NCBI RefSeq assembly: GCF_963676685.1
Contig: NC_092354.1
Coordinates: forward strand, 61,566,001 to 61,630,000
From: Mytilus edulis
Lineage: Eukaryota
Length of the DNA stretch: 64,000 bases
Direction: 5' to 3'
Under the pieces are notes generated by a model. It searched no databases, was not told the DNA's origin, and saw only the letters and a list, made by a program, of their open reading frames with translations. The translations under genes were made by a program, and so were the position numbers. This document shows, one piece after another, positions 11,067 through 51,339 of this stretch. Within the stretch, counting starts at the first letter, position 1; every line of letters begins with the position of its first letter.

Positions 11067-12990
11067 ATTACCTAGAGTTCCTGATGTTACTGTGTCTTTC
11101 AAGTTTGTATGCCTACGGAAGGCAAACAGACGTCTTTTATCAAATAAAAGTTTTGCCTCTTCGTCATCATTAAGTTATCCCAGAGTTTTAAGATATTGTT
11201 CTTTATATGTGATTTCTGTCTTGAAAACACTGTGGAGAGTACCAAGGGAGGCGACTGTAATACAGATTTGGGTTTTCCTATTAATGTGTCCTTTCTTTGT
11301 TTTGCAGTCACGTCCTGCATAACAGTTTTAATTTCATTTTTTGGACATCCCTTTTTAATAAGGCGCTCAGAAAATAACTCATATTGTGTTTGCAAATCTA
11401 CTGGACTGTTTGTACACCCCTCAAAACGAAGCATTTCTCCTTTAATTATGCTTCTGAAAGAAGAGGATGGGTGGCATCAGGACCTCTCTTAGTACTGATA
11501 ATATTCAGTTCTTTTTGGAATGTCGTGAGGTTTAAGATTCCTGTTTCTCTAAATGTTGTGGCCTTTGAATAAATACACACCTAAAAACTGCATTTTAGTT
11601 TGTGATTTTTCTTGTGTAAATGTGCATGGCGTCTGTTATCATGTTAAAAAAATTATGCTTTTTTATCATCAGTACCTGCATTGTAAATGAAAAAGCCATC
11701 GTCCGTTAACCTATAGAGGCTTGATATTTTCTGTTTATGTTGGAAAGTCTTTAGAATACTATTTGAGACTTAGTAAACTCTCAGATCCGTACTTTCAGGT
11801 GATAAACTATTTCCCATTGGAACTTCGTTTTTGAAGTTTTATAAAAAATACCATAGAACATAAATTCGTTATTTTAAGGAACTATCTTTAGAAGTTCCAA
11901 TATATATCGCAGCGGTGGTAATAGTATCGTATGTAAACATTTAATTATCGTAGGCCAAGCATGCTTGACTGCTTCAACTATTTCTATATGGGACATATTG
12001 TTGTACATTTCTTTTATGTCAAAACTAAGTAGACGTCAGGTTTTACCTGCAATTTCTTAATAATATTTTTAAATTATAATGAGTCTCTTAAATGGGTCTC
12101 TTGTTTTACTACTGCTGGAAGCATGAATTTATCGAAATACTTCCCTATTCTCTCTAAAACAGTACCCGATAATGAAACAATAAACCTTCTTTGAATACTT
12201 ACATTTTGATACAGTGTAGGATTCTGTTGAACCCTTTCTATTAGTTCAGAATCCAGTTTGTGCAATTGAGGCAGAAGATACAACCTTCCTGGTTTATGAT
12301 CTCTCTTAGCAGAAGTTATTTAAACGTGATTTCATCCATGACCCCTTTGCTATGCATTCCAAAGATAATAGTATTGATTTTCTGGTTGGTCTCTATTATT
12401 TCTAATTTTGCAATTTCTATGAAGTGGGTAGCACTACTCAATTGCATCAGTCCTTCATTTATATATTCTGTTTTAACCCAGATCACTGAAGTATCATTTT
12501 TATCTGCTTTTCGAATAACTATGTTTTTGTTTAGTTTCGGGAAAGAAATTGCCTTTCTTTCCAGCGTAGTGCGATTATCGTGTGCTTTTTAAATTGTTAT
12601 ATTATCTATCTCAATTTTAGTTTTGAATATATATGTCTCAATTGCACTGTTTGCAAGTTCCGGTTCATATCCTGATTTTGTATAATAGTCCCAGGAAGTT
12701 AATTCATATGCACTACTATTTTGTTTTCAAATATCAAAATATAGGGCTGTGTGGCATATTTTCAACGTTTATATGCCTGGAATTTTTAAGAATTTTAACT
12801 TTAACTAATATTGTGTACTACGTACATGTACCTTGTACGCTTAACTCGACCAAAAGATTTATTAATATCATATATCTCCCAAACATGGTTTGTGGAACAG
12901 CTGTACCATGTGCAATTTATAGCATGTTTAATTCCGACATTCTACCAATTTTATCAAAAGTTGAACTTAAATTATCAGAGATGATATCTG
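11067..12990 (-). pseudogene. Penelope-like (Neptune-type N-terminus) reverse transcriptase A, near full length, decayed, ends without GIY-YIG
   Basis: Motifs YTKSGYEPELANSAIETY, IVIRKADK, PGRLYLLPQLHK, FDIKEMYNN, PMGNSLSPESTDL, YRLTDDGFF, QFLG, CHPSSSFRSIIKGEMLRF, LIKKG, PLVLST and AFRRHTNLKD, then a stop. Multiple in-frame stops and frameshifts. Confidence 0.85.
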
Positions 12991-14710
12991 TGAAATAAAA
13001 AGAATATTTGACTAGAATATAAAGCCATTGCCCGGCATGCATTTCCCACCATCATCGTCAAGCAACCTGTTAAAAGAGCTAACACTAAGCATTTGTCTTA
13101 TTTTACTTACAACCCTAGAGACTAAGTGTTTAAATTTTCGTGTGTCCCGGTGTTATTAATAAAAATCTTAAAGATTTCAAGTATAAAAAAACAGGACAAC
13201 GTTCGTCATAACATGATTTCAAAACTTTCAACATCGATTTCAATCAAATGGTTTGAGTGTTCATGCCGAACGCTCACGTGGTACCAAATGAACTCAACCT
13301 TATACACATGTTATACGGGGATGATAAAACGCGATGATTCCGTTAAAAAAGTTTTGAGCGGGAAATACAAATATAAGATTTTCGATAGGAACGAAAAGAT
13401 AAATAAAAATAAAATATTGCTGGCAAATACAAATAAAGATTTTCAGTCGGAACGAATTTATAGGATCGGTCGGTAAAGGGCAAACACACAATATTTTAAT
13501 TTAAGCCTGATTTTTAACAAAACTATTTGCAGTTTGTCCACCAATATCATATGTTGTTAAATGAAATATGAATTAATGTTTTTGAATCATATGTTTTCTC
13601 GTTTAAAAAAACAAAGGCTTTCAATTTCCAGTTAAAAACATGCCAACTTTAAGTTTAAATTTTATATAGGAATGGTTTATTATTTATGTCTTCGTCATTC
13701 CAGTGACCCTTGCTGATAAGTGCATCTAAAATATTAACAAATTGAGCCTGAAATAAGGCATTCATTTTTTGAAAGTGATTAGCCAAAAAATTGAGGAATA
13801 CCAATAAACAGGCTAAAATACAAAAATATGACGAAAGAAAGTTTTTACGACCAAACGAAAATTGAAATATAGATATTTTTCTATCATTTAAAACGATTCC
13901 CAGTCGTGTGTTATTCTGGTACATTTAACGCATTAATTAATTGTCTTTTTTAAGATCATTTGCAGTACTAGTAGATAAAGTTATAACATTTAATTTCAAA
14001 GCACGTGATAAATTCATTTTTTCCCCGTTTATTTCTATTCTGTACTTAAACAATTAATGTACTAAAAGTTGAGTCGGGTTTAAAGTAAAATATACGTCAA
14101 TATTTACAAAATAACTAAAAAAATAAACAAAGCATTCTTATTTCAGCACTGGTTATGGATCAATTTTTTCAGGTACGGTTATTTGTAAGAATGAACAAAT
14201 GTACATATCTATCTGAATCATATGCAATAATTGAGGTATCTAAAGTGATGCTCAAGGCCCAACATTAGATAGCTCTAATTGGATGCCTAAATCGTGGAAT
14301 TGTGTCTACAACTTTTACTTATCTATAAAATATTTGATGGTTGCATGCATAGACACTATTCAGATTTAGTGTCTTTATTATTGAAATTTAAGCAATTCTT
14401 TTAGCTTCCTTCCAAAATGTCTAACCATACTATATCTAAAAACAGGCAAGTATTGAAATATCACAACAAAATTAAGAATAATAGATAAAAGACATGTTTC
14501 TTAAATATATTTTCCCGCGTTTCGGAGTATAGCGGGAAAATGTTGTCTAAAAGGAACGTTTTATAAGAACGGTATATATTTTTGGCGGGTTTTGTTATGT
14601 GTAGTTGTACACGTGGTTACGTGGACCAATCATTTGGATTGTGGTGAAAGCTGGTTTTTAATTTTCATGTGTTTGAAAATCATTCTAGCCGCAGACGTTC
14701 AACACTAAAC

Positions 14711-15382
14711 ATGTCGGAGCCGGCAGAAATAAACATGCTTATCGACCGAAAAATTAAAGACGCTTTGAGCCAGAACCAAAACGAGATACTGCAGAGATCC
14801 GTTCACGAAACGCAGAGGCAGCTATCAGAAACTCAAATGTCTAAAATCCAGCAGATGAACACCGAAAATTACGTTTTTAAGCGAAAGGGAAACGAAGAGC
14901 AGTTCAAGGTTAACACAAAAATCGCCAACAAGATGAAAGAGGCCAGAAGTATTCTAACAGAATCGCAGAACAACAACGAAAGTACAGAGGGCGCGATGAG
15001 GAACATTTGTGAAGGTTTGGACATTCTCAATCATCGACAAAAATTGATTAAGCTCGCGGATCAGTCCGAGAACGGCTGGAGAACAGTTACCGAGTATGAA
15101 ACGCACAACCTAGCAGATGATTCAGAAGACGAAAAACGCATAATACGAGCTGAAAACAAAGCGTCGAGGAAAATGAAGAGCGACAAAAAGTTTAAGACAC
15201 GCACAACTCCTTACAGTGCCCCACAGTCTACTCGATTCAACTCAGTTAATCGACAGAGTACAGTTAACATCCTGTGGTGCATCGACCCGGAAAATGTTAT
15301 GAGTGTGGTTTGTCAGAACATTGGAGGTCAGACCATTATAAACAGGGTTGGCAAACTCAGAAAGAAAAGTCTGATAAGATAA
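14711..15382 (+). CDS. Gag-like ORF1 of the YR retrotransposon (frameshift before the zinc knuckle)
   Basis: ATG lies immediately after repeat A1. Motifs FKRKGNEEQF, RQKLIKLAD..GWRTV.EYE..LADDSEDEKRI. The CxxCxxxxHW knuckle (CYECGLSEHW) lies in a different frame (ORF 15274-15489). Confidence 0.8.
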   Translation: MSEPAEINMLIDRKIKDALSQNQNEILQRSVHETQRQLSETQMSKIQQMNTENYVFKRKGNEEQFKVNTKIANKMKEARSILTESQNNNESTEGAMRNICEGLDILNHRQKLIKLADQSENGWRTVTEYETHNLADDSEDEKRIIRAENKASRKMKSDKKFKTRTTPYSAPQSTRFNSVNRQSTVNILWCIDPENVMSVVCQNIGGQTIINRVGKLRKKSLIR

Positions 15383-16932
15383 GTACTAGATTATTTAGTA
15401 ATGATTTATCTGTTAATTTTGGTAGAGAAAATGCTATAGTTTCATGTAATTCACCTGTAGGTAAATTAAGAAGTTCAATTGATTATTGACGTAATATTGT
15501 TTGCGCTAACGAGACAGTTATTGATATCATAGAACATGGATATAAAATACCTTTTCACACAGAGCCAGGTGAGGTATTTTTGAATAACAACAAATCGTCT
15601 TTAGAGAATTCAGATTTCGTAGATAATGAGATTTTAAAGATGATAGAATTAGGAGGCATAAAAGAATTTTCATGTAAACCTAAAGTAGTCAATCCGTTGA
15701 CGGTAGCTAACAATAAAAACAAATTAAGATTAGTTTTAGATTGTAGACACATTAACCCACATCTTCATAAATTCAGATTTAAATATGAAGATGCTAGCGT
15801 AGCCAGTCAAATGTTTAAGAAGGGAGATTACTGCTTTACTTACGATTTGAGATCGGCATACCATCATGTAGAGATATTTGAATCACACAAGACATATTTA
15901 GGTTTTGCTTGGGTCAAAAATCGTGAAACAAAATATTACGTCTTTAATGTTTTACCATTTGGTATATCTACTGCTGGTTATATATTCACCAAAGTTGTAA
16001 GGTGTATTGTTAAACATTTACGAAATTCAGGTTTGAAAATTATCATGTATTTAGACGATGGTTTAGGCGGGGCTGACGAGATAAGTCAGGCCCAGGAAAC
16101 TAGCATAGTTGTTCAGAAAGTACTAAAAGCTTCTGGGTTTTTGATAGCAGAAGATAAATGCAATTGGACACCTAGCCAAAATGTGGTATGGTTGGGTGTA
16201 GTATGGCAATTTGACAAAGGCATGGTTTCGGTCACAAAAAGGCGACTTTCCAAATTGTTAGATACTTTAAATAGAATTATACACAAAACAGGGAAAGGAG
16301 AAATACACGTTTCGGCAAGGTTTCTTGCTTCTATAATTGGTCAGATCATATCTATACAAGGGGCAGTTGGTCCTGTAGTTAGACTATGTACAAGAAGTAT
16401 GTACGAATGCATTTTGTATAAAGCAAGCTGGAATGCTAATGTTCTGTTGAACAGTAGATCTCTTGATGAGATAATTTTCTGGAAGGAAAATATAGAGAAA
16501 ATGAATGGCAGAGAATTGCATATTGTTGAGCAATACTCGAGTGTAGTATACACAGATGCCTCGGGCATAGGTTATGGTGGCTATTTGGTAAAAGCCATAG
16601 ACGAAGAGATTATGGGTAGTTGGAACGATGGAGAAAAATTGAAAAGTTCTACTTGGAGAGAGCTTGAGGCAGTTTATAGAGTACTGCAGTCTATATCTAT
16701 GTCATTAAAAGGTCAAACAGTTAAGTGGCACACAGATAATCAGAACGTAGTAAACATAATAAAAAAGGGCAGTAAGAAATCTGATTTACAAAATATTACA
16801 ATTAAAATAGCAAACGTATGTGAATCAAATAGCATTAAGATCGTACCAGAGTGGGTACCTAGACAAGAGAACGTTAAAGCAGATAAAATTAGCAAAACTA
16901 TTGATTGCGATGATTGGAAGATAGACGATATT

Positions 16933-17821
16933 ACATTATATTCGTAAATATAGCTCAACATGCAGACTTCTAATACGTTCAGGTATTTCACATCCAATTT
17001 TTTATGGAAATATTCTTTATAAAGCACAAAGGTGTCAGTATTCACCTCAGAAACTTACAAAACCTTTGAATAGACTTATTAAGAAGGGATATAATTACGA
17101 TACTGTTGTCAAGTCATTAAAGATTGCATATTTTGGCGTTAATATTGAGTCACTGATAAGGTCTTTGCATCGGAACTAAACACATTTATTCTAAAAACAG
17201 TTGTTGGCATGACACGGGTTATGTTCTTCTCATATATGTTATGATGGTATGATACTAAACCCCTAACGGGAAGGATTGTGCCTGATGTTCATATGATGAA
17301 ATCATAATCTTTCAGTCAGTTTAATTGAAGTCTGGAGCTGGCATGTCAGTTAACTGCTAGTAGTCTGTTGTTATTTATGTATTATTGTCATTTTGTTTAT
17401 TTTCTTTGGTTACATCTTCTGACATCAGACTCGGACTTCTCTTGAACTGAATTTTAATGTGCGTATTGTTATGCGTTTACTTTTCTACATTGGTTAGAGG
17501 TATAGGGGAGGGTTGAGATCTCACAAACATGTTCAACCCCGCCGCATTTTTGCGCCTGTCCCAAGTCAGGAGCCTCTAGCCTTTGTTAGTCTTGTATTAT
17601 TTTAGTTTTAGTTTCTTGTGTACAATTTGGAAATTAGTATGGCGTTCATTATCACTGGACTAGTATATATTTGTTTAGGGGCCAGCTGAGGGACGCCTCC
17701 GGGTGCGGGAGTTTCTCGCTACATTGAAGACCTGTTGGTGACCCTCTGCTGTTGTTTTTTATTTGGTCGGGTTGTTGTCTCTTTGACACATTCCCCATTT
17801 CCATTCTCAATTTTAGATATT
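16933..17821 (+). mobile_element. 5'-truncated Naiad-like Penelope retroelement (RT C-terminus plus 3' UTR) inserted in the YR element
   Basis: Flanked by a GATATT duplication (16927-16932 and 17816-17821). An open frame from 16939 reads IRKYSSTCRLLIRSGISHPIFYGNILYK...LIKKGYNYD...LHRN*, which I recognise as resembling the C-terminal extension of bivalve Naiad-type RTs (recognition, not a search). A SECIS-like hairpin follows. Confidence 0.7.
17230..17296 (+). promoter_or_regulatory. Type II SECIS element (selenocysteine insertion sequence)
   Basis: Helix I UCAUAU/AUAUGA; core AUGAU at 17241; helix II GGUAUGAUACU/AGGAUUGUGCC; unpaired AAA; mini-stem CCC-CUAAC-GGG; 3' UGAU. It lies about 60 nt after the stop of the RT fragment. 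Confidence 0.8.
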
Positions 17822-18269
17822 TCATTTGAATATCTTAATCAGAATTGGGGTCCACATACCGTAGATAGGTTTGCCACTGATTACAATGCAAAATGTAGCA
17901 TATTCAACACTAAACACTGGTGTCCAGGTACACTGGGTATCGATGCTTTCAATAGACAGTGGGGTAAAGAAAATAACTGGATTGTGCCACCACCTTCAGA
18001 CATATCCCGATGTATACACAAAATTATACAAGATAAAACAGATAGCACTTTATTTGTTCCTTTATGGGTTTCAGCACCATATTGGCCACTTTTACACAAA
18101 GTCTATGGTAATGTTGTAGAATTCGAATCGTTCATTAAAGATAGTAAAATATTACCATCAACAGTTATCAAAAAAGGCCGAGGTAGAAATGGTTTGTTCG
18201 GAAAATCAACAGATTTCAGGATGTTGGCTATGAAAATAAGGTTTTAATTTATTTCATTCTTTCCTACAG

Positions 18270-19280
18270 GTATCGGTCTGAAATGCAGGGTGTTGGAGGA
18301 AATACAAGATGGAGGGATTCTTTCGGCTGATTTTGACGAATTGGGACGTAAGATGTCATCGTATTTACTGCAGTCCAGGAGTGACAATACTAACAATAAA
18401 TATTTTTATGCTTATAAACTATTGGAGAGATTTATATTAAAACAAGGGGGACTATCTTTGCCAGCAAAACCTATACATGTAGCTTTATATTTAACCAAAC
18501 TGATAGACACAGGTTCATCTTATAGTGTAGTTCAGTCAGCGTTTTACGGTATAAAATGGGCACATACAGTTCAAGGTAGTTTCAGATCCCACAGAAAATG
18601 CTTTTGTGACCAATTTACTGGAGTCATCTAAACGTCAACCACATAAACCGAATGTTAAAAAGGAACATATTGATTCTGAATCTATTATTGAACTTTGTAC
18701 AAAATATAAAGACAGTGATGATATAGCTATTTTAAGGGATTTATGTATGATTGTTCTTAGTTTCTCTGGATTTCTTAGATTCAATGAGCTTAGTTCTCTT
18801 TGATGTAAAGACGTTCATTTCAAAACTAATTATTTAGAGATTGATATTGACCAAAGCAAAACTGATCAGTATAGATTAGGGGAAAAATTAGTTATTTCAA
18901 ATGGTGAGTCTGCTGCTTGTCCTTATAATTTATTGTCCAAGTATTTCAGTATTTGTAAAATTGAGTCCAGTTCTGAGCAGTATTTATTTAAACCTATTTT
19001 TAGATGAGGCAAACGGTGTTCGCTAATTTACAAGAACAAAAAACTGAGTTATACCAGAGCTAGAGAGTGTATAGTAGCTAGACTCAAAGAAGTTTGTGGT
19101 GATATAAACATAGGTTTACATTCTTGAAGGGCGGGTGGAGCCACTGTCGCAGCTAACGCTGATGTTAACGAACGCTGCTGGAAACGGCACGGTCGATGGA
19201 AATCTGACACTGCTAAAGATGGGTACGTGGCAGACTCACTTACACATCGTTTAGAAGTTACTCAGAAGCTAGGTATTTAG
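18270..19280 (+). pseudogene. Tyrosine recombinase ORF3 of the YR element (one frameshift, three TGA stops)
   Basis: Motifs GFLRFNEL, SKTDQYR, GLHS*RAGGAT, HGRWKS and DGYV. Frameshift near 18580; TGA at 18801, 19005 and 19125. Confidence 0.9.
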
Positions 19281-22200
19281 CATTTTCTTTTTATTGTATA
19301 TCATTTACAGTTTTCCGCCCTTTCTTTGTGTTTGTAGTCTGCACGGCTAAATGCAATTTGTGTTTGTTATTATTGTAGTGTAGTTAATACATGTATTTTC
19401 CCGCGTTTCGGAGTATAGCGGGAAAATGTTGTCTAAAAGGAACGTTTTATAAGAACGGTATATATTTTTGGCGGGTTTTGTTATGTGTAGTTGTACACGT
19501 GGTTACGTGGACCAATCATTTGGATTGTGGTGAAAGCGGGTTTTTAATTTTCATGTGTTTGAAAATCATTCTAGCCGCAGACGTTCAACACTAAACTTCA
19601 ATGTTTCATAATATTTGATATTGTATATTATTTTGCTGTTTTTTCTTGTGATGGAGTTTGGCATCAATATCCCGAGGCGTGCCTTTCATTTGCTCCGAAC
19701 ACAGGTTTCCATATCAATTTTCTTTAGTAAAGTTTTTTGATGGTTTTTCCTGGGCGGCGAGGTTACGTTAAAGACGGATAAATATACATACATGCATAAA
19801 TACAAAGAGATATGGGCTGTTATTGATTCAGAGTAAACTTGTTTCAGACGTTTATTCTTTCTGTGTACCTCATTTGGAATGTATTTGTATTTCATATATG
19901 TCATGATATATAATATAAAATATAAATTAAACGCCGGCTATGTTAGTCTGCACGGCTAAATGCAATTTGTGTTTGTTATTATTGTAGTGTAGTTAAGACA
20001 TATACCTTATCTACATGTATTACTTTAAGTTTTTAATCAGATATGTATTTAAAGAGGTGAGATTCTATAAAATTATTTGTTTGTTTGTTTGTAATAGATA
20101 AAAGTTGTACAATAGGTGCAAAAAAATACATGTGAATTGTTGGTAATCATATACGTGTATATATGCCTTCACCATTTCTCGAGGTCAAATACCTTATTCG
20201 TAATAAATTTTGAATAGACTAATCACTAGCTAGGTATTTAAACAAAGTTTGGTCAACTTATATTTCGTAAAATATTAAACCAGAAGTAAAATACAATCAC
20301 TGCTAAAGTTACTGACGAATTTAGCGCTTTCTTCTTAAGTTTAATAATTTCACTGACAATGAAACCATTTTCAAGGATATTGCTTGGTTGTACTTTAGAT
20401 TTTAATGTCTAAACCATTTCGAAAGATTAAATACCTAAGGCTTTATAACTTGTGAATATACATTATACGATCTAGGTATTTAAACAAAGATACGGGAGGT
20501 TATTATAATCAATCGAAAAGTATTCTTGCAACACAATTTTCGTCTTTGTCCCAATTTGTTTTCTTCAGTAGCAACCCACTTTGTTCAGCACAATTAGCCT
20601 GACGATAGTCGAGTTGTCGAAATTAGTTTTCATTTTGGTTACTTTAAAAACAACTTTAAAACAATGTTTTAGACCATTCTATGTCAAAAGAATTTCCACA
20701 CATGTTTCCATGACAACACAGTTACATCAATATGCTGCAGGGTTAAAATTGGTTTTATACAATTAACTAAATCAATAGTGTTATTGTGACAATGTATCAC
20801 TTTAATATGTGTAAATTCATCACTTATCTTCACTGAATTGTTAAAGTAAAGTATTTTTCGGGTTATTAAATCTTTGTCCAAGCAGAAATCATATTTGTAT
20901 GTTTTTTTGTTAGATTTACAAATTATGAGATAGTAATAAGAATGCAAGCCCCTCGGGCAAAATATGACTCTTATTTATAGATTCCCTTGATTTGTCTTAA
21001 ACAAAAGCATTAATCTAGGAAGGCTAATTCATTTGCTAAACATAATATTTAAACACACGTTAAACACAGGTCTAGTGTGAACACAGTCATGGTAAACTGC
21101 AAGTAAAGGTTTGCCTGTTGTCATTTTTGTGTCATAGGGCGTTGACGTACAAAATCAAAACTCTTTCTGTTGGATATTTTTCACATTGGATATCACACAA
21201 ATATCCGTATGTCTTTCTTAAAAGCAAGAGCGATTTGAAGTCTCTCTTTTGATCTTGCAAACAACAAATGTTCTGGCTACTAGGTTTTTCAATACTCATA
21301 GAAGCTCTGTTAATCCAAATTCGATATTTCAATAAATAGTTAATTCCGTATTGCTTGTTTAATTGTAAGATAAGTTTTGATCGTTAAAATGCTGAGCATC
21401 TTATTTGTTCATGAATATATATAATGGTATTTGATATAATCGATGACACTAATTTGTTTTAGATCGTGGAATATCAACTGTTAATACTAACATTGAAGAT
21501 AATAAGCAAGATGTGACATATTTTCCAGCCACCCCACCATGTAAGTACGCCGAAATTTCAAAGCAATGTTGAATTACAACAAGACAATACACATGTATGT
21601 TAAAATGTTGTAAGTTCAACGATGACTTTAAAATGTTTCAGTTAAATATTTCAACATTGAATGTCTAATATTAAATCAACTACAAATTTCGGTTGATTAA
21701 GTAGATATTTGAAAAAACATTGTAGGTGTCTAATATAGCACTGAATAAACGTTAAATGAAAGTTGATAGGTTTGGCATACAACTGCAAATTAGAAAAAGG
21801 TTTTCATGTTTTACAAAATATTGCATTGTACAACAGACGATACTAACCACGAACTCAATACTCATGATACAACTCCGATCAAAATATGTGTAAAAAAAAG
21901 CTAAAACCTATGAACAAAAATGATCAAAATAGCGTAGCAGGTTGAAGATTGATTATTTGACAGGGTTTGCTTAAAATGCATTGCAAATATTTCTCGCAAG
22001 TTAAGGACTATAACGAAGGAACAGAAAATATAAAAGATAGATCCTGGTATAAGAATTCGACCAGGTTGTAGGGCGCCTTTTTTGGAATGCACCTTGAAAA
22101 TTAGTCCTTATAGGAAAGGGACCGACATTTTGCTCTGCAACAGGCCATTCACGGACCAAACACATAGTTAATGCAAGGGCTTGTTACGCACAGAAACAGT

Positions 22201-23460: not shown

Positions 23461-23844
23461 AACACGGGTAGAAAGATCGTCATATCGAGGAGCGTTTAGT
23501 ACAGTGATTTTGTCATAGTTTGGATATGTTTGACATGGTTAATTTATGTTACTTTCCTAAACTATTGCCTCAGTTCTATGCACACGAGCAGATGAAAAGC
23601 AAATAAGATGTTTGAATCTTTATTGGAGGTCAAACGATCTACATTGGAATAATTGTTTCACGAAATTAATGTAGAATAAGCAAGATATCGGAATTGCTAT
23701 GGTTTGGTTAAGCGATTGACATGGTTCGGTTAAGAGTCTAGAAATTCGTCAAGGTTTAGGTAAAGTTTGTCATGGTTTAGATCGAAATAAATATGTATGT
23801 GTTTCACTTTAAACTTATTGGTTTTAAAACTATATGTGTAATTA

Positions 23845-24311
23845 CAGTCCTCGGATGGGGTAAACTTCCCACTAACACCATACACCATTACACCATATAC
23901 CATACACCATTACACCATACACCTTGTACCATTACACCATACACGTTACACCTTTGCACCATACACCTTACACATTACACCATACACCATACCCCATTCT
24001 ATCTACACCATCCGAAATTACCCATAATGCAATTAAATTTCAAATATTGAGATTATTTTTATTGTTTATGTTCACAATCCGAAAAATTAAAATAAAAAGA
24101 ACTTCGTTTTCAACCAATGAAATGTTGTACACCGTTCATTCACACCATTCCCGATCGCACGTTACAAAATCACACCATTCCTCATACACCATTACACCAT
24201 TCCCCTTACACCATACACCATAAAACCATACACCTTACACCATTGCAGCATATGCCATACACCATTACACCATACACGTTTTTTTGGGAAGTTTACACCG
24301 TCCAAGAGCTG
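23845..24311 (+). mobile_element. Tc1/mariner-type MITE (TA TSD) with internal (CACCAT/TACAC)n arrays, copy 1
   Basis: TIRs CAGTCCTCGGATGGGGTAAACTTCCCA / TGGGAAGTTTACACCGTCCAAGAGCTG, with TA on both sides. Confidence 0.85.
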
Positions 24312-25290
24312 TACAATAAAAAACACTTTCAAAGTTCGGATTCAAAGTATGAAAGATCACAATTCCGATTGAGTTTTAAGTCGACATGACGTTCAAGTTT
24401 ATCAATTATTATTACGAATCAATAAAAATCTTTGTAATCAGTGCATGTAATGTGCGAATCCTGAAATACCATTTTCAGAGTTTCAGTGATGAATTTCTTA
24501 TGTAGAATGATAAATAAACAGACGACAAATTTACGATTTTTTAATAAAATAAGACATAATATACAATATGTACTGTTTTTATAAATTCATGATAAATGTA
24601 TTTGATGCGGACCCTACAGCCATACAGGTGTAAAATTAATACACATATAGATAGATATTAAGAATAGTTAACGAACAGAGCGTACAAAAGTTTTTAAAGT
24701 AGCAGTCAAGTTTCATTTGTAGAAAAATGCACCTTTTAACATGATTAGTAATGTAGTATAACTTAAAACTGGGTTTGTTGTTCCGCTTGTTGATATTAAA
24801 TCATTTCCACTTTGTTGTTTGTGTGATGAGAATCATGTTTACTGTTCAATAATGATATCAAAATTTCATTTTCACTGTAGAGCGATTCATTACTGTTGTA
24901 TATGCGATGCATTTTCACAGAAGGATTTTAATTAATTTTCATCATATAAAGTCGTAATTTAGCCGGCTCTCTAACATGATTTATGAAGTCAGAAGGATTG
25001 ATTATATAAGCACACTTTGTGAGTGAAAGTCTGGGGTAATATATCAATAAATGCAGTAAAAATGGCATTTATTGCTAATTTTTGAAGACCGTACGATTAC
25101 CTATAGTTGTTAATTTCTGTCTCAATTTGGTCTCTTGTGGAGAGTTGTCTTATTGACAATCGTACCACATCTTCTTTTTTATATTGTCAATTCTATATTC
25201 TCTGATAATTTGTTCAGACCCATATGTAAGATTAAAAATATCTTTTCCTATAACACGCCATCATTGTTTACATATATCTTGAAAAGCTAA

Positions 25291-34600: not shown

Positions 34601-37105
34601 GCATACGGAGCTTGTGTTGAAAAACAGGTCCAGAAACATATGAAGAAAATCTGAATATAGCAAAAAATAGGAGAGCATCTACCAAGCAATTGTCCAATCC
34701 GCGATAAGAGATGTGTCGGGCAATCATAATGAAGATTGTGGAGGAGATGGACTTTCATGAATTTATTAGAATAATTCACATTGTAGATTAAACAATAGTA
34801 AGCTCTCAGATTCAAAGGGAAAGATTTGGGTTTGGAACAGTTGTGGCAGCCAGAACAACGAACAAAGTAAAACAGAATCATCGGATAGGTGGTGGGTACA
34901 GGGGAACATTATCCTGTTGATAGGACTACAAGAGCATTCGAATTGGAATCTGTATGGCAAAGGAACTCAGATTTTTTTCATGCTTGCAGATTGAACGATG
35001 ACTAATTAGGCAAGATTATGCAGATTCAAATCAATCACCAGCTGTAGTTGAAATGACAATGTCATTTGAGCATGCAGGATAGCGATTTTGTCCCGGAGTT
35101 AACAAATATTGATCGGAATCGATTTTCCAAAGAAAGAAAAATGTTGCGTTTAACAAGTTTTATTCTGGAAGTACCTAAAAAAAGACAAAGTTCAAAGGTG
35201 CAGCAAACAATATTACAGCAGAAAATTTACAATTAGCAGAAACATTCTGGATAAAAAATATTCAGCAAAAATCTACCGAAGGATTCTGCAGTGAGATTTA
35301 GAAGGTAAGGTGTAGAAAAAAACAAGATGGTATAATAACAGTAGGGCAAATAATGCAAGAGTGGATGCAACTTACTTGGATTCATACTTGATTTATTTTT
35401 TTGCCAGCTAAAGGTCTGTTTTTAAAATTGATTGTTGTTTTTTTACATACAGAAGATCATACAGGAGAAGATGCGGTATTATCCAATTAAAGGAGCAGGT
35501 ACTGGATCCCTGAACGTCGAATAGAACGACACACATGTCAATGTTGCCTAATGAAAGACTGTAACCTACACCAGCGTTTTACAATTGTTCTAATGATTTA
35601 TCTTGGCCGTTTATAATTCGAGATACTGTGCAGAAACGAACAAATGGTCAAGCTCATGGAGTCCTTTTCAACTGTCTGACCAGCAGAACAGTATATGTTT
35701 ACTTTGCAGAGGGTTATGATGTTCGCCAATGGGACTGGGAACCAATTCAGACATGTGTTAAAGGTAAAGGAATAGACTGGCCTGGGTCGTAACGGCATCC
35801 ACAGTAGTGAATCATTGGTAAAATATGTAAAAAGGAATTTGGAAGTTGTTATATGGAAATCCGTTATGACATTCTCAGAGCTACAGATTTTAATGCCCCA
35901 CCTACGATAGTAGAGGGGCATTATGTTTTCCGGTCTGTGACTCCGTTCGTCTGTGCGTCCATTCGTCCATTCGTCCGTCTGTGTGTCCGTCCGTTCAGGA
36001 TAAAGTTTTTGGTCAAGGTAGTTTTTGATGAAGCTGAAGTCCAATCAACTTGGAACTTAGTAGACTTGTTGCTTATGATATGATCTTTCTAATTTAAAAG
36101 CCAAATTAGACTTTTGACCCCAATTTTACGGTTCACTGAACATAGAAAATGAAAGTGGGAGTTTCAGGTTAAAGTTTTTGGTCAAGGTAGTTTTTGGTGA
36201 AGCTGAAGTCCAATCAACTTGAAACTTAGTAAACTTGTTGCTTATGATATAATCTTTTTAATTTTGAAGCTTAATTAGACTTTTGACCCCAATTTCACGG
36301 TCCACTAAACATAGAAAATGAAAGTGGGAGTTTCAGGTTAAAGTTTTTGGTCAAGGTAGTTTTTGATAAAATTGAAGTCCAGTCAACTTGAAACTTAGTA
36401 CATATGTTCCCTATAGTATAATCTTTCTAATTTTAATACCAAATTAGATAATTACCCAATTTCACGGTCCATGGAACATGGAAAAGGATAGTGCGAGTGG
36501 GTCAACTGTGTACTTTGGACACATTCTTGTTTTTTTAAGATTCTAGTTTGTTCAACGAAAGGCAGATTTGTACGAAATATTCCGATCCAAATGAAGGATT
36601 CTCATGTGTCCAAATGATTTTTTATTAAGTAAAGCAATCATCAGTGTTGTGATACCGGGAACATTATGGAGAACAATTATTGTAGAATATGATCGACATT
36701 CGTACAGTAATTAGTCCTAAAATTTGGACACGAGACTTTTCCCCGACGCTAACTGTTCGTCAAAAATGGCACACGAAAACAATGAATGTAAAAGTAGGGA
36801 TCGTACAAGATATCAATAATGTTTGTGAACGTTGGAGAAAAGCGAAGATGATTAAAGCGAAGATTGAAAGAGATGGGCTTGTGCAAGATGTGATTCACAA
36901 GTACAAGAATGTTGGTCAAAGAATCTCAACACATTCGTCATTCCGTTTACAGGCTTGTTGTCAAATAACCAGTTGAGGAGCACGTACAGGAATGACTAGT
37001 TGCGTAAATTGCATCGGACGATTTCTCTCTTTTCTGTCAGAATTAATTTAGCATGTTCAGCATCGACTTTGCGTTTCTCTCCCAATAAATGACAATCCCT
37101 ATAAA
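31683..37105 (+). mobile_element. Decayed BEL/Pao LTR retrotransposon
   Basis: Direct LTR remnants at about 31700-31790 and 37015-37102 (ggacgat..ttttctgtcagaattaa..tgttcagcatcga..ttgcgttt). Internal motifs PKCGSCQCGKCPIG, IHYLPH, RFVWRD, VTFGDRPSGTIATIAL, NSYVDNII, IYDP, AYGAC, QKWH and GLVQDV. Many stops. Confidence 0.85.
35892..36529 (+). mobile_element. HINE-like non-autonomous Helentron element with three 169-bp tandem repeats, inserted in the BEL integrase region
   Basis: 5' hairpin AATGCCCC...GGGGCATT, (GTCC/GTCT)n microsatellite, repeat starts at 35994, 36163 and 36332, and an end at CATTCTTG in a T run. Confidence 0.8.
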
Positions 37106-41397: not shown

Positions 41398-42521
41398 TTT
41401 AGGAAACAGACACCATTTACAAAAAATCTTAGTGTCGAGTAGGCTATCATGACATTATTCATTCTTTTATGGATATAAAATAGTCGTCATAAATTTCGTG
41501 CGTCAAAGTAAAATATCTCATCAAAATACATGAATAGTTGTGTCCAGTGATCAAAAAATATATTTTGATTTGTTTTGAATAATTATATCGTTATTGTCTT
41601 GTCATCTGAAATGTTCAAGTCTTTATTAATCTGTATAGATTGTTTGGTATTAGTGTTAAATATATTTGGTTTTCGTATGTTATGAATAATTCTATTGTAA
41701 ATATGCTATTACTCGGATTATATCTTCAGAAGTAGATTTGTGTTATCCAGTGGTAGACTTTATGTTGTTTTATAAGGTTGCCAATATATTTTATTTGTAA
41801 TCGTCCTTCCACTTTCTAACCACAATAAGTAGTCATTTGTTTGTTTGGTTATACATGTATGTCTATTTTTTGTACATTTGAATGTTCTACCGGAAAAAAA
41901 AGTAAAATCACAAAAATACTGAACTTAGAGGAAGATCAATTGGGAAAGTCCATAATCACATGGCAAAATCAAATAACAAAACGCATCAAAAACGAATGGA
42001 CAAAAACTGTCATATTCCTGACTTGGTACAGGCATTTTCAAATGTAGAAAATGGTGGATTAAACCTGGTTCTATAGCGGCAACCCTCTCACTTTAATGAC
42101 AGTCTCATCAATTTCCGATATTTTTACATTGATGCGTTAAATAAACAGACACAATAAATATAATAGTCAAAATATGGGTACATCAGTCATCATCGTTTAA
42201 CAATTTTAAAAAGAACAATTTAACAGAACACAAAAACATCTACTATCTACGAACACATTTATATATTTGAGTGTCTGACGTCAGAAAATTTTATACGTCA
42301 CATAAATTTGTCGTTCAATGTACGTACAAACAATTTAATTTTTTTTCCCCATGGGAATGTTAGCATACAGGGTTAAAAAATCAAAAGTATGTAAGAATAA
42401 ATTTAAGAAATAGACCGGAATTATCATACTCCGTTACTATTTTAGAATTAAGCTTGTATGGATTTTTTTATAATTCGAAGATAACTATTCTCTAGCATTG
42501 TAATTTGTGTATGAATGTTTA

Positions 42522-42998
42522 CAGCTCTTGGACGGTGTAAACTTCCCAAAAAAACGTGTATGGTGTAATGGTGTATGGCATAATTATGCTGCAATGGTGT
42601 AAGGTGTATGGTTCTATGGTGTATGGTGTAAGGGGAATGGTGTAATGGTGTATGAGGAATGGTGTGATTTTGTAACGTGCGATCGGGAATGGTGTGAATG
42701 ATCATGAACGGTGTACAACATTTCATTGGTTGAAAACGAAGTTCTTTTTATTTTAATTTTTCGGATTGTGAACATAAACAATAAAAATAATCTCAATATT
42801 TGAAATTTAATTGCATTATGGGTAATTTCGGATGGTGTAGATAGAATGGGGTATGGTGTATGGTGTAATGTGTAAGGTGTATGGTGCAAAGGTGTAACGT
42901 GTATGGTGTAATGGTACAAGGTGTATGGTGTAATGGTGTATGGTATATGGTGTAATGGTGTATGGTGTTAGTGGGAAGTTTACCCCATCCGAGGACTG
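42522..42998 (-). mobile_element. Tc1/mariner-type MITE, copy 2 (inverted relative to 23845-24311)
   Basis: Near-identical reverse complement with two small insertions, and a TA TSD at 42520-42521 and 42999-43000. Confidence 0.85.
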
Positions 42999-44159
42999 TA
43001 CATTAATGCAATGAAATTAAACAAGATTTTTGAGATTTAAGATCACATGTCAAATGTTATCCTTCTGAGATACTGTCATCATTTAGCGTCCACCGTCCAA
43101 TATTTCCGTCATTAACTGTTTATAAAAGAAGAATTCCTCGGCAAGAAGAAAATGTTTAAGAAAAAGATAATCGAAAAATCTGTACGATCCAAGACGAATA
43201 CATAAGTTTAAATTCATTTGTAGAAAAAAATATGAAAATGTCAAGGCCTATTTCAGCCTTTATGTTTAATACTTAATGGCCGTTTCCTTTCAAAATTCTA
43301 GTTTTATTGCATTAACATATCAGTTGGTGTATATTGGTATTTTTTTCTCTCTATAGTCTTGATAGTGTTGTTCTCCTGATCTTTTTGGGGTTCCAATACG
43401 TCGATGATCCTATAACTGTATTCATTCGATATTTCAATTTTTGTAACCCAGATTTTTCACCAGTACTCATTTCACAGTTTTACAGCAACAATATTCATAA
43501 TCGCTCATGGTAATTGGAGTCGCATGGGCAATATCATGGTCGCATACTAGCCAATAGTGTATAATATAGTTGGTTCAATCAACAGCCGTGAAACCAGACT
43601 ATTTGATATCACGCTGCTGTAAGGGCAGACTTTTGTGTTCAAAGCCAGAAAAGACCATTTCAGAGTTTGAGCTAGCATATATGAAATCCGACTTGATGCC
43701 AGGATATCTTCATATTTTAAAGACACGAGTGTCGAATATGCAAAGTAATGTGAAAATTTGTTCACACTATTCGTGATATCTTTTGCTGATGATACATATC
43801 TTTTATTGTAGCACATTTGTAGCTAGTAAACATTTCAATTCAGATCACAAAACAATCTAAATTTATGAACAGTATCATTTACAGAAAATAAATCATATAC
43901 AATAAACTGCTGAACAAAGTATCCAACTCAGATCATTTTATATATACCACATCAGTTAGCAAAAGCAGATTAAGATTCGAGTACAAAAAATAAAAACAAG
44001 TATTCTCAAGTATTCTCAAGTGAACTGCATTTTCAATACATTTTTTAGACAAGCGTAACTTCAGATCTTTCTGATTGAGAGGTGTCCTGTAGTACGACGC
44101 TAGATTAAAACTGACGTGGAAAGGTAACACTCGGCCTACGAAAGCTTTATTTTTATGAA

Positions 44160-46624: not shown

Positions 46625-48982
46625 GTAAAAGACATTTTCTAATATTTAAACAAACGTTAATTTGCAAACTTTTCTGAGTTTTGTATTCTAGTTATTTATC
46701 CTGTTAATCAATTAAATAGTCAAAGACACCAGCCTTTTAATTTGGCACGACAAACTCGCGTTTTGTCTACCTAAGACTCAGTATTAAAAGAAGAGATGTG
46801 ATATGATTGCCAATGAAACAAATATTCACCAAAGTTCAAATGTAGAGGATGTAAGTAATTATAGGCAATACACTCATATAAATTACTATGCTCTTCAACT
46901 TCGTACTTTATTTGGCCTTTTTAACAATTTGTTTTATTCGAGCGACGTTACTGATGAGTCTTTCGTAGACGGAACGCGCGTCTGGCGTAAATGTAAAAAT
47001 GTAATCCTGGTATCTATGATGAGTTTATTTACTACGCAGTTTAAGAGTATACATTACAGAAAAAATCGAATTTTGTGCAAAATACGGCTAGGGAAATATG
47101 TATCTTGTAGTAAATAAACAAACAACCCCAGTGTCGTTCACTGTAATTTTACACAGAAAATGAACATTTCATTTATATTTCATGTCTAAACAAAATTGCC
47201 GACTATTAAGCTGGCGATACCCTTGTGGACGAAGTGTTTACTAGTATTGGCTGTGTTCCAAAGATTTAAAAATGGATAAAAGATACTTGGGTTGTTATTG
47301 TGATGTCTTATTGATCTGACATCAAAATATTTTTTACATTTCCGCTGTTTATATCCGACATGGTATCTTATCTTATCTTACCTTTTTCAGAAAGATTATT
47401 ATAATTCATTTTTTGTAACTCACGATGGCGTAACAAAATCAAGAGATACAAATAAACCACTAGACAATAGAACCCGACAAATTCAATCATAAACTTACAG
47501 ACACCTACATACATTTAAGACTGTTACAAATAATCATGGTTTCCGTTTACTTTTACATACTAGTAATTGAATTTACTATTTCAAAAGGTAGTACTTAACC
47601 CACTCGTAATATTTTTAGAGAATAGTTGATACCCATTGTTATCTGCAACATAGTCCAGTAAACCGAGAAGTTATATAAATAGCTTTAAACATATGTCATG
47701 TTAGTATTTGTTTATTTTTGACACTAAAACAAATAAGAGGGAGTCAAACGGTTTGTGTTGATACCGGTCAGCAAAGCAATTATGATTGTGATGCTGATAT
47801 GACGTAAATTCCAAACGGACGAGCTCAGGAATGAAATTGAAAATTCTTCTAAATTTACGTATGTGCGCTCATATGATAAGCAGTTATTTCATTACACACA
47901 GCTTTACGTTTCTGAAATTTGAAGGTCCCTACTTTGTATTGGTCATCTAAACTACACAAATACCCATTTCATCTCGGTATTCACTACGTTTTCTATAACT
48001 AGTTCAAAATACTGAACTAATTCCTTCACTTCTATCAAATTACTTATTATTGGTTGCTGTAATAGAGCATATGCAAATAGTTGAATTAACTTTTGTAAGT
48101 GTAAAAAATCTTTGGATGTTTTAGATGAAGAGCTTTTTTTAATGAGAAAGGTAAACTTGCTATATATACTTGAGATATGATGAGATGATTGAAACTGTTA
48201 CGTTATCCCTGACAACATTCATGTACCTTTAGTGATGACGTTTATTGATAAGTTTCGCCCATTTAATCACAGTCTTGTTATCGTAATGTTATGAATCACA
48301 ATGCATGTAAAACCTAATAAAGAGTCTTTATAGCATATAATTGGTAAAATCAACAATACTTATAATGTTTCGTTAAAAAATCATGAATTTTCTATATAAA
48401 CTGCCAACATTTACCCAAAAAAATATGGATGGGACTTGTTTTGATAGCGTCAATTCGATCCAAACGAGATATTATTGTTTATACATATATGCATTCATGG
48501 TCCTATAATCTGTCGATATCTGTGATTTTAAATTGCACAAAATCGTGTTTTCTCTAAATTTTAATGAGGTCGTAATACTTAATCCATTGAATGTAAGATG
48601 CATAATTGTGTTTTAAGTTTGTGTTTTTTTTTGGCCTTGAAATAGCTGTCAGTAACTGCAAGTAGTCTTTGATCTGTAATATTTGATTAGTTATTGTTTG
48701 TTGTTGTTGGGATGTATAAGAACCCTTTCATGTCAGGTCTTTGTTTTTGTAAACCGGTTTTTGATTTTGTTACTTGTTGTTCTGCTTTTTTAATGTGATG
48801 AATTAAGCAAATTTAAACCGATTTTCAGAACCTTGAACGTTTTATGCACAAATATCGAGTCAATTCGCTAAGCAATACAAATTCACAATCTGAAAACAGT
48901 TCTATTCGAGTATAGGTCATATTGGGTACTTAGAAGACAGACAAAACAGATGTTAGACCTAAATCGAAGACAAGGTACTAAT

Positions 48983-49598
48983 TATTATATGCAGTGCTCA
49001 CAACATTATATGCAGTGCTCATAGCATTATATGCAGTGCTCACAACATTATATGCAGTGCTCACAACATTATATTAAGTGCTTACAACATTATATTCAGT
49101 GCTCACACCATTATACACAGTGCTCATAACATTATATTAAGTGCTCACAACATTAAATTAAGTGCTCACAACGTTATATTAAGAGTTCACAACATTATAT
49201 TAAGTCCTCACAACATTATACGCAGTGGTCCAAACATTATATGCAGTGCTCACAACATTATACACAGTGGTCCAAACATTATATGCAGTGCTCACAACAT
49301 AATATGCAGTGCTCACAGCATTATATGCAGTGCTCACAACATTATATGCAGTGCTCAACAACATTATATTAAGTGCTTACAACATTATATTCAGTGCTCA
49401 CACCATTATACACAGTGCTCACAACATTATATTAAGTGCTCACAACATTATATTAAGTGCTCACAACAATATATTAAGGTTCACAACATTATACGCAGTG
49501 GTCCAAACATTATATTCAGTGGTCACAACATTATATGAAGTGGTCAAAACATTATATGAAGTGCTCACAACATTATATGAAGTGGTCACAACATTTTA
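48983..49598. repeat. 21-bp minisatellite, about 29 copies
   Basis: Unit CACAACATTATATGCAGTGCT with TTAAGTG/ACGCAGTGGTC variants. Confidence 0.95.
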
Positions 49599-51339
49599 CG
49601 TTTTTGTTGATGAAAGTGATGATCGGTGATGGTGATGATGATGTTTGATGTATGATGAGATTGATGCATGATGAGATCATTCGGTAAATGGCGGAAATTA
49701 CCGAATCTATAATTGGTAATGCCCAGCTAACAATTAAAGTCATGTTATCATTAAGGCAGTATACAATATTCAAAATTAATTGAAATAAGTAAGGACAAGA
49801 TGAAACTAAGAGGCGAATGAATGAACTAGTTCTATTCGTCATAAGAAATGCGATTGGCAAAATGTAAGTTAAATAATAAAAAGTTTATTTAATGAAATAT
49901 CGAAGGAAAATTTGTATGATATATTCCTCGAAGAACTCGAAGAACTTTAGCAAGGTGCAACTTTATAGTCCGTACTCAGTTTTAAAAAGCTTAATTACCT
50001 TTTAAATAAAATAGTCAGCTTTCTATAACACCTAAGTGCCATATTACGCTAGCTTATATATGTCATGATAGAGTAATTTTTTGGCATCGATTTTCAAAAT
50101 TTGGCATTTTTACATGAATAAGTATCTAACAGTTATGGAAAATGCAGTTAAAAGCATTTCATTGTAGGTGTTCAACATAACTTTACATCAATTATTTCAT
50201 TTTTTAACAAGCTTTTTAGCACGCCAAGTAGTTTGTCTTCTAAATATGATCAGCAGTCTTATATAGAGATATAAACTTTCAAAAGAAAATATTTACCCTT
50301 TCAAGACCTAGTTTAACATTTTCATTTAAAGTTATCATTTCTTATGAAAACTGAGTTTGTGGGGTTTACTACGCTTGTTCGTCAGTTTTCACGGTTAATA
50401 TATAAAAAAGTGGTATGCTTGCCAATGAAACTAGGCTAGGCTAGGACTGTTATACTAAGGTAATATAACACATACATATACCCCTATAAAATCATTACAA
50501 TAAACGTAAAACATACCTAATTTATGTACAAACAAACGATCGAAAAACGAACATGTACATAACACATTAACAAACAACAACCACTGAAATAAAGGCTCCT
50601 CCTGACTTGGTACAGACACATATATACAGAATAGGGCGGGTTTTAACATGTTAGCGGGATACCTACCCTCCCTCTAACCTGGGACAGTGGCGTAACAGAA
50701 CAACATAAGAACGAACTATGAAAATCAGTTGTAAAAGGCTTAACTCATCAGATGGATACAAAGATAAATAAGTACATCTAACAAAAAAATAGAGTGGACG
50801 TGGGCGGGTACTTGTATAACCCAACAACAGAAAGACACTATAAGTACTGATCTTAGAGTACTCGCAGTTACTGACAGCTAGTTCAAAGCCACTAACAACT
50901 ATTAGAAAAAACCATGAATCTAAGGTTTGCATTTAGGTAAAGATTGAAACAAACTGTGAGTAAAAAAGAATGATTTACTATTATTGGATAGTAACGATTG
51001 TCCATTAAAAAAGAGTCATCCTGACCTTAATTAATTCTTGTTAAGGTACATTAAGATACAATATCTAATCAACTAAAAGTCATAGAAGAATAATGTCTTT
51101 TAGATCGCGCTTCTTGGATAACAATTGACCTTGAAAAAAGGGGGTCCTAATAAACATTTTTATAGTTTCCAGTCATTAAGTGTATGAATCTATCTGAAAT
51201 TATACCACAAGTTTCCAAACCACAAAGGGATGGTTATGATTTGCTCGGAGGGGTAGATGAGGGAGGTATTATGGCTCAAACCGTTTAGGAATTAGAGGCA
51301 AAAAAGAGGGAAAAACAAGGGTTTCTTGGTTAATGGTCA

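What the first reader, a model, noticed from the sequence alone, without database searches (positions are those of the whole stretch)
16933..17821. Retroelement fragment carrying a textbook SECIS, inserted into another retrotransposon
Seen: an 889-bp insert with a GATATT duplication, an open RT-C-terminus-like frame and, about 60 nt after its stop, a type II SECIS fold (AUGA/GA core, 11-bp helix, AAA, mini-stem). Established: some Naiad PLEs in spiders and clams encode selenoproteins. Inference: this family spreads SECIS elements via 5'-truncated copies, which could impose UGA recoding on host transcripts or sequester SBP2 when landing in 3' UTRs.
Basis: partly seen in the sequence, partly recalled or inferred. 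Interest (0 to 1): 0.72.

Follow-up and report, generated by a model that had tools for sequence, protein, structure and literature searches.

The report
Selenium-coding jumping gene floods mussel genome
This is the tail of a young mussel jumping gene, sitting inside another jumping gene and carrying an RNA hairpin that full-length copies likely use to read four UGA 'stop' codons as selenocysteine; the trick is published for clams and spiders, but here the hairpin has been scattered to over 5,000 places in the genome.

Summary
Observation confirmed. The insert is the 3' 878 bp of a Naiad (Penelope-like) retroelement in the pol gene of a broken Ngaro/DIRS-type element; the duplication is 11 bp, not 6. 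Intact copies have a 1002-codon GIY-YIG-to-RT frame with four in-frame TGA, all at positions that are Cys in other Naiads, kept in a sister subfamily at dS 0.29. The type II SECIS covaries across 13 related elements, follows 11 of 15 TGA-bearing relatives but 1 of 30 Cys-only ones, and its apex occurs 5,248 times in the genome. So it is most likely a selenoprotein-coding Naiad, a kind described in clams and spiders (PMC8557442), which also first proposed SECIS donation to host genes. I found no case of donation, in weak tests. New relative to that paper: the mussel family, a type II SECIS, a wide selenocysteine clade, and TGA in the CxC motif of relatives. This scan noted the same element type three times in other genomes. 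Recoding itself is inferred, not assayed.

The parts
16927..16937 (+). Target-site duplication, left copy (11 bp; host sequence)
   Evidence: Empty sites carry one copy; alignments to L080 and L086 overlap by 11 bp
16938..17815 (+). 5'-truncated Naiad copy (subfamily A), last 878 bp of a ~3,965-bp unit
   Evidence: 864/878 identical to full-length copy L067; 40 scored copies 99-100% identical over the 5' half
16940..17179 (+). Last 79 codons of the Naiad EN-RT frame and its TAA stop; no start codon, no UGA
17231..17295 (+). Type II SECIS: AUGA 17241-17244, helix II 17246-17256 with 17272-17282, AAA 17257-17259, mini-stem 17261-17270, UGAU 17283-17286
   Evidence: Rfam RF00031 32.3 bits; pattern and shuffles; covariation
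17816..17826 (+). Target-site duplication, right copy (one mismatch)
14502..14710 (+). Host element, split direct repeat A1
   Evidence: 99% identical to 19388-19596
14648..15382 (+). Host element, gag-like frame, frameshifted near 15271
   Evidence: continuous with pol in copies L084-L086
15490..16937 (+). Host element pol: RT and RNase H, interrupted by the Naiad; preceded by a copy-specific TGA at 15487-15489
   Evidence: PF00078 E 1.9e-18, PF17917; Trp codon in 8 of 8 other copies showing the site
17816..18247 (+). Host element, rest of pol: adenine methyltransferase domain
   Evidence: PF05869 E 1.5e-7
18248..19280 (+). Host element, tyrosine-recombinase-like frame, broken (frameshift near 18578 and stops)
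   Evidence: 343-codon open frame in L080, L084, L086, L087; no Pfam hit on the fragments; label rests on motifs recalled from memory
19335..20004 (+). Host element 3' repeats: B1 19335-19395, A2 19388-19596, B2 19944-20004 (A1-B1-A2-B2 order, Ngaro-type)
   Evidence: the Ngaro label for this order is recalled

Best explanation
The insert is a 5'-truncated copy of a young, high-copy Naiad retroelement whose 3' tail holds a type II SECIS hairpin that likely lets full-length transcripts read four in-frame UGA codons as selenocysteine and so make the endonuclease-reverse transcriptase. Shown: insert, duplication, family, intact frames with four TGA at Cys positions, hairpin with covariation, copy number. 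Inferred from established eukaryotic selenoprotein synthesis: SBP2 binds the hairpin, recruits eEFSec and Sec-tRNA, and the ribosome inserts Sec at residues 55, 86, 97 (metal-binding motifs of the endonuclease) and 522 (8 residues after DKA); three of the four UGA lie in the first 100 codons, so without recoding no RT would be made and mobility would depend on host selenium supply. Reverse transcription starts at the 3' end and usually stops early, so most new copies, like this one, carry the SECIS but no UGA: here it is most likely an inert passenger in an already or subsequently broken retrotransposon.
For: 4 of 12 long copies fetched have a 1002-codon frame with TGA only at 55, 86, 97, 522 (picked because one search showed long frames). 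TGA in 39/40, 40/41, 37/41 and 58/59 copies covering the sites, no other majority stop; 141 of 150 scored endonuclease matches hold 3 TGA. Sites 55, 86, 97 align to Cys of a Cys-type Naiad; site 522 is Cys in 17 of 19 homologues that read through it. Subfamily B (92% DNA identity) keeps all four TGA and the hairpin; dN/dS 0.11, dS 0.29. SECIS pattern after the stop in 11 of 15 distinct TGA-bearing relatives, 1 of 30 Cys-only ones. 16 of 19 pairs show two-sided changes, 0/500 shuffles reach it, slid controls fall from 0.76 to 0.16-0.28; RNAalifold finds the same helices unaided. Host GPx genes carry in-frame TGA, so the host uses Sec. RNA reads cover all 30 bins of the unit in 4 of 4 runs.
Against: No read-through, ribosome or selenium data. 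Rfam score of this copy is under the cut-off; one variant copy and one relative pass it. SECISearch3 was not available. 4 of 15 TGA-bearing relatives show no SECIS by my pattern (by eye L176 has an insertion in helix II, L172 and L173 look decayed, L186 shows nothing). The aligned SECIS set was chosen by a pattern that demands pairing, which inflates covariation, and the TGA-bearing relatives are one clade, so the co-occurrence is not a set of independent events. Pfam finds GIY-YIG just under its cut-off and no RT. RNA reads lie on both strands and rise towards the 3' end like copy number, so DNA carry-over or passive transcription is not excluded.
Confidence: 0.9

Rival explanations
1. The scattered SECIS copies act on the host: sense copies in 3' UTRs would recode host UGA stops or create new selenoproteins, or the mass of SECIS RNA would titrate SBP2.
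For: 5,248 exact matches of the 25-nt apex, 0 for the reversed control; 27 of 30 sampled copies lack all Naiad UGA and 27 of 30 keep the core; the SECIS bin is read 5 to 36 times deeper than the endonuclease bins.
Against: No Naiad SECIS in 8 stretches around Sec-GPx genes; these hold unrelated SECIS candidates. No credible host exon upstream in sense in 26 copies (87 frames; the two hits over cut-off lie in repetitive sequence), a weak test with 350-1,470 bp flanks. This copy is not in a host gene as far as Pfam shows. SECIS-bin reads show no excess of one strand.
Confidence: 0.12
2. The TGA codons are real stops in a non-autonomous family moved by a Cys-type Naiad, and the hairpin is a relic or serves packaging.
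For: Cys-type Naiads are published for Mytilus; no translation data.
Against: dN/dS 0.11 over the whole frame between two subfamilies that share the four TGA; all four sit on Cys; sporadic stops are mostly TAA (21 of 29); hairpin and TGA go together across relatives.
Confidence: 0.04
3. The SECIS recodes the host retrotransposon's own pol frame, which has an in-frame TGA at 15487 upstream of it.
For: TGA in frame and SECIS in sense 1.75 kb downstream.
Against: The TGA replaces Trp in this copy only; the copy has frameshifts near 15271 and 18578 and pol is cut at 16947.
Confidence: 0.02

Closest known systems
[quoted passage not shown]
   Same: N-terminal GIY-YIG, C-terminal RT; UGA at the first Cys of CCHH, at the Cys before GIY-YIG and 8 residues after DKA; SECIS behind the stop; visibly similar sequence around these sites (compared by eye).
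   Different: Mussel host; extra UGA at the second Cys of the CX2-5CxxC finger (Cys in both clams); type II SECIS 61 nt after the stop, whereas all four published ones are type I and 1-21 nt from the stop or overlapping it.
Naiad_Sdum and Naiad_Smim (spiders, PMC8557442)
   Same: UGA before GIY-YIG and at DKA+8; Sdum also has UGA at the second Cys of the zinc finger.
   Different: Spiders also have UGA at the first finger Cys; clam-type CCHH site not recoded in them per the paper; reduced IFD; (TA)n targets.
Naiad_Mgal and Naiad_Mcor (Mytilus, PMC8557442)
   Same: Same clade and host genus.
   Different: Cys at the endonuclease sites, not flagged as selenoproteins, different N-terminus; 4 of 5 short motifs of this family are absent from the paper's supplement and the fifth hits an unrelated coding stretch.
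Rfam SECIS_1 (RF00031)
   Same: Full-length match of all 64 positions, core, AAA and mini-stem.
   Different: 32.3 bits against a cut-off of 35; one A-G mismatch in helix II.

Membership tests
Naiad PLE | GIY-YIG endonuclease N-terminal to RT in one frame | tested here: met
   PF01541 E 8e-4, 20.1 bits (cut-off 22.6) at residues 90-184; 34% identity over 493 aa to a Naiad that passes the cut-off; one 1002-codon frame
Naiad PLE | CX2-5CxxC finger and CCHH motif | tested here: met
   C50-x4-U55-x2-C58; U86, U97, C102 align to Cys; the His residues were not mapped one by one
Naiad PLE | KR-rich block, CxC motif, DKA motif | tested here: met
   Seen in the translation: basic block near 217-235, C385-N-C387, DKA at 512-514
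Naiad PLE | RT core motifs | tested here: met
   Motifs visible in the translation and 3,217 homologues; Pfam RVT_1 and PDB searches gave nothing
Naiad PLE | 5' truncation, partial tandems forming pseudo-LTRs, 3.4-4.4 kb | tested here: met
   Units of 3,965 and 4,030 bp; truncated 3' copy directly before full copies; head-to-tail tandems
Naiad PLE | No canonical hammerhead ribozyme | tested here: met
   Rfam finds none within full-length copies L067 and L123; hammerheads in other loci lie outside the element
Naiad PLE | Insertion-in-fingers domain; placement in a tree with the published Naiads | not tested
   Published sequences could be read but were not in the analysis files; comparison was by eye
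Selenoprotein-coding Naiad | Several in-frame UGA at conserved Cys | tested here: met
Selenoprotein-coding Naiad | SECIS in the 3' UTR | tested here: met
   SECISearch3 not available
Selenoprotein-coding Naiad | Sec actually incorporated | not testable with these tools
   Needs reporter, ribosome profiling or selenium labelling; the passages I read of PMC8557442 also rest on prediction
Eukaryotic type II SECIS | AUGA/GA core, 10-12 bp helix II, unpaired AA, apical mini-stem | tested here: met
   the mini-stem is the weakest helix (74% of cells paired in my register)
Ngaro/DIRS tyrosine-recombinase retrotransposon (host) | RT-RNase H-methyltransferase, recombinase frame, split direct repeats, no target duplication | tested here: inconclusive
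   RT, RNase H, Dam and A1-B1-A2-B2 repeats found; recombinase not confirmed by a profile; outer ends not mapped

The most novel reading that the evidence does not exclude
A selenium-dependent retroelement clade, far wider than the four published families and with Sec/Cys switching at five motif cysteines including CxC, has seeded more than 5,000 working SECIS elements through the mussel genome, and some now recode UGA in host mRNAs: the first transposon-born selenoproteins, with retrotransposition tied to selenium supply.
Probability: 0.15. Interest if true: 0.82.

Novelty: new member of a known kind. Interest (0 to 1): 0.46.

Why it matters
Craig et al. asked whether selenoprotein-coding transposons are rare oddities and whether they hand SECIS elements to host genes. 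This family is young, has intact copies and over 5,000 SECIS-bearing inserts, so both questions become testable in one genome. Dozens of further families with a stop at the same Cys (37 of 77 homologues, 30 clusters at 80% identity) suggest such elements are common and are being missed or cut into pieces by gene callers.

Tried and rejected
Six-bp duplication: replaced by 11 bp. A general target duplication or (TA)n preference: no clear duplication found in the 30 sampled copies by a simple junction search. Host TGA at 15487 as a recoding site: copy-specific. PTPS and DUF3106 Pfam hits upstream of SECIS copies: the PTPS hit lies in a 73-bp tandem repeat; the DUF3106 hit was not inspected further and looks repetitive by its multiple stretches. 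Rfam found no host SECIS in 8 GPx stretches, so it is insensitive here; my pattern found candidates in 5 of the 8, three of them the same sequence. Sulfotransferase model P0270 with a Naiad piece: intronic copy that has lost the SECIS. Phage search with the SECIS region: no match. PDB and Pfam searches for the RT: nothing. Whole-genome Rfam search scored only 130 of 47,381 candidates and gave one Naiad copy. Sequencing-run search: no RNA holder listed; raw RNA runs came by species label. A Fisher test left L187 out and treats related elements as independent, so it is not used. The tree is the quick one, without bootstrap.

Full report
Observation. The window holds an 889-bp net insertion in the pol frame of a retrotransposon with RT, RNase H and adenine-methyltransferase domains and A1-B1-A2-B2 split repeats, an Ngaro/DIRS-type element (label recalled). 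Of 11 other copies fetched, 9 showed the site and all 9 are empty. Alignment shows host sequence up to 16937 and again from 17816, overlapping by 11 bp of the empty site, so the duplication is 11 bp with one mismatch and the element proper is 16938-17815. The insert opens with 79 codons ending in TAA at 17177-17179. Sixty-one nt later comes AUGA, an 11-position helix with 10 standard pairs, AAA, a CCC/GGG mini-stem and UGAU. Rfam SECIS_1 matches it over all 64 positions at 32.3 bits, E 0.0022, below the cut-off of 35. The folding z-score alone is weak, -1.63. A SECIS pattern of my own finds only this site in the window, none in 10 shuffled windows and one in 2 of 2000 shuffled tails.

Family. 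The genome is 1.37 Gb; a protein named as Mytilus edulis maps to contig C2 and its record's longest contig has C2's length, so the host is very likely M. edulis. The 40 scored copies of the insert's 5' half are 99-100% identical. Of 12 long copies fetched, 4 have a 1002-codon frame whose only internal stops are TGA at 55, 86, 97 and 522; the other 8 are frameshifted, stopped or truncated. Across 81 distinct copies, TGA is present in 39/40, 40/41, 37/41 and 58/59 of those covering each site; the 4 Cys codons at 97 come from a set ranked by a query with Cys there. The N-terminus is GIY-YIG (PF01541, 20.1 bits, cut-off 22.6), and sites 55, 86 and 97 align with Cys in a Cys-type relative. CxC, DKA and RT motifs, partial tandems and unit length fit the Naiad definition in PMC8557442. 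A second subfamily, 92% identical, has intact frames in 4 of 5 regions fetched (6 units), the same four TGA and the same hairpin; dN/dS is 0.11 at dS 0.29. One of its changes makes the first pair of helix II an A-C mismatch; another turns U-G into U-A. The 25-nt apex shared by both occurs 5,248 times, the reversed control never. Of the first 30 such places on C1 (two are one duplicated locus), 27 begin downstream of all four UGA codons, 3 run past the fetched flank, and 27 keep the core.

Relatives. A metagenome scan gave 80 loci; I analysed 68 and left out 12 short or partial ones. Nineteen have TGA at one or more conserved Cys. Sixteen of these have at least 100 nt of tail and 12 show a SECIS pattern behind the stop (11 of 15 after removing a duplicate). 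Of 30 loci with only Cys at the covered sites and enough tail, 1 does (L187, a partial locus 67% identical to the query, upstream sites not covered); 19 further loci were uninformative or set aside, none with a hit. Rfam independently hit 9 of 20 loci scanned, one above cut-off. In a sequence-only alignment of 13 SECIS, T12-G13-A14, A28 and G54-A55 are invariant while helix arms share only 7-13 of 22 letters with the window outside subfamily B; 16 of 19 pairs change on both sides, no shuffle of 500 reaches the score, and RNAalifold recovers the three helices. These were chosen by a pairing pattern, so the figure is flattered. The 17 TGA-bearing rows form one side of a branch (SH-aLRT 100, quick tree of 47 rows). 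Seven of 18 loci that cover it have TGA at the first Cys of CxC, a site not among those listed in PMC8557442; L170 and L173 have it with Cys at DKA+8, and L171 has five TGA. In the protein collection 37 of 77 homologues end exactly before the DKA+8 Cys (30 clusters at 80%), and 9 more end before CxC by my reading; the codon is not on record there.

Mechanism. Shown: everything above. Inferred from established selenoprotein synthesis: the hairpin binds SBP2 and directs Sec into four positions, three in metal-binding motifs of the endonuclease; without recoding translation would end at codon 55. Host GPx genes have in-frame TGA, so the machinery is in use. RNA reads from 4 runs of 2 studies cover the whole unit; in X22 the endonuclease bins are strand-biased (9 against 54), in the other three much less or not; the SECIS bin is 5 to 36 times deeper and lies on both strands. 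This fits some full-length transcription plus passive transcription of fragments, but DNA carry-over is not excluded. The window's copy has no start and no UGA, and sits in a host element with frameshifts near 15271 and 18578: most likely inert.

Host recoding. I found no example. Eight stretches around Sec-GPx genes hold only Naiad ends downstream of the SECIS, and their own SECIS candidates are unrelated. Upstream flanks of 26 copies gave no credible host exon. Both tests are weak without annotation.

Literature. PMC8557442: I saw the abstract, sections 6 and 7 whole, passages of sections 3, 8, 16 and 20, supplement parts 1, 5 and 55 and four searches of the supplement; long protein rows were cut and figure S3 is a picture, so the published SECIS folds were not seen. 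It reports four Sec-Naiads (two clams, two spiders), type I SECIS, Mytilus Naiads without the selenoprotein flag, and proposes SECIS donation by truncated copies. Seven paper searches found no other paper on Sec-Naiads; PMC9076623 (abstract only) and an oyster preprint (listing only) do not bear on it; subscription journals are largely not covered. Three earlier notes of this scan report the same kind of element in other genomes; I reached my reading before seeing them and they are not independent support.

Verdict. A real SECIS in a new, active mussel member of a published class. The added value is scale (over 5,000 mobile SECIS), covariation support, a type II fold and a wider clade with a further Sec site. 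Interest 0.46.

Noticed in passing
L170, L171, L173, L174, L175, L177, L180 (metagenome loci): TGA at the first Cys of the Naiad CxC motif, a Sec site not listed in PMC8557442; L171 has five in-frame TGA; L170 and L173 have Cys at DKA+8, so Sec/Cys switches within the clade.
   Followed up: partly
P0207, P0218, P0246, P0249: Database proteins show Trp exactly at the Sec sites, which suggests gene callers read them with TGA=W; most others are cut at the TGA.
   Followed up: partly
L168 and L167 (G000:C2:64046870-64047040, minus strand): An annotated sulfotransferase model includes about 52 residues of Naiad endonuclease from an intronic sense copy that has lost its SECIS; exonisation or annotation error.
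   Followed up: partly
window 15487-15489: Copy-specific TGG-to-TGA change in the host pol frame, upstream of the inserted SECIS.
   Followed up: yes
L121, L122: Head-to-tail tandems of two intact subfamily B units, 4,030-4,033 bp apart; similar spacings recur among the hits.
   Followed up: partly
L165:5376-5612 and L166:3797-4033: A copy truncated just upstream of the SECIS, in sense, about 3.3 kb after an exon that looks like the end of a universal-stress-protein gene (recalled motif; stop is not TGA); the 8.3-kb region is duplicated almost identically.
   Followed up: partly
window 61886-62218 (+): Fibrinogen C-terminal domain exon (PF00147, E 9.5e-31).
   Followed up: no
window 36686-36973 (+): DUF5641 fragment, typical of a decayed LTR retrotransposon (recalled).
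   Followed up: no
window 40572, 45872, 46237, 46600, 63037; L156:2372-2415 and 2672-2715: Dispersed and ~365-bp tandem repeats with a motif like the type I hammerhead ribozymes that Rfam found in L156 and L034; not part of the Naiad.
   Followed up: no
window 12077-12588 (-): Decayed frame with a DK-G/A-like stretch, possibly an old Penelope-like RT fragment.
   Followed up: no
window 23843-24313 and 42520-43000: A near-identical 470-bp inverted pair 18 kb apart, built on a 22-bp tandem unit.
   Followed up: no
window 48901-49672: 21-bp tandem array with an open 191-codon frame (repeat-driven Pfam hit).
   Followed up: no
L157, L159-L161, L163: Candidate host SECIS elements downstream of Sec-GPx exons, missed by Rfam.
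   Followed up: partly
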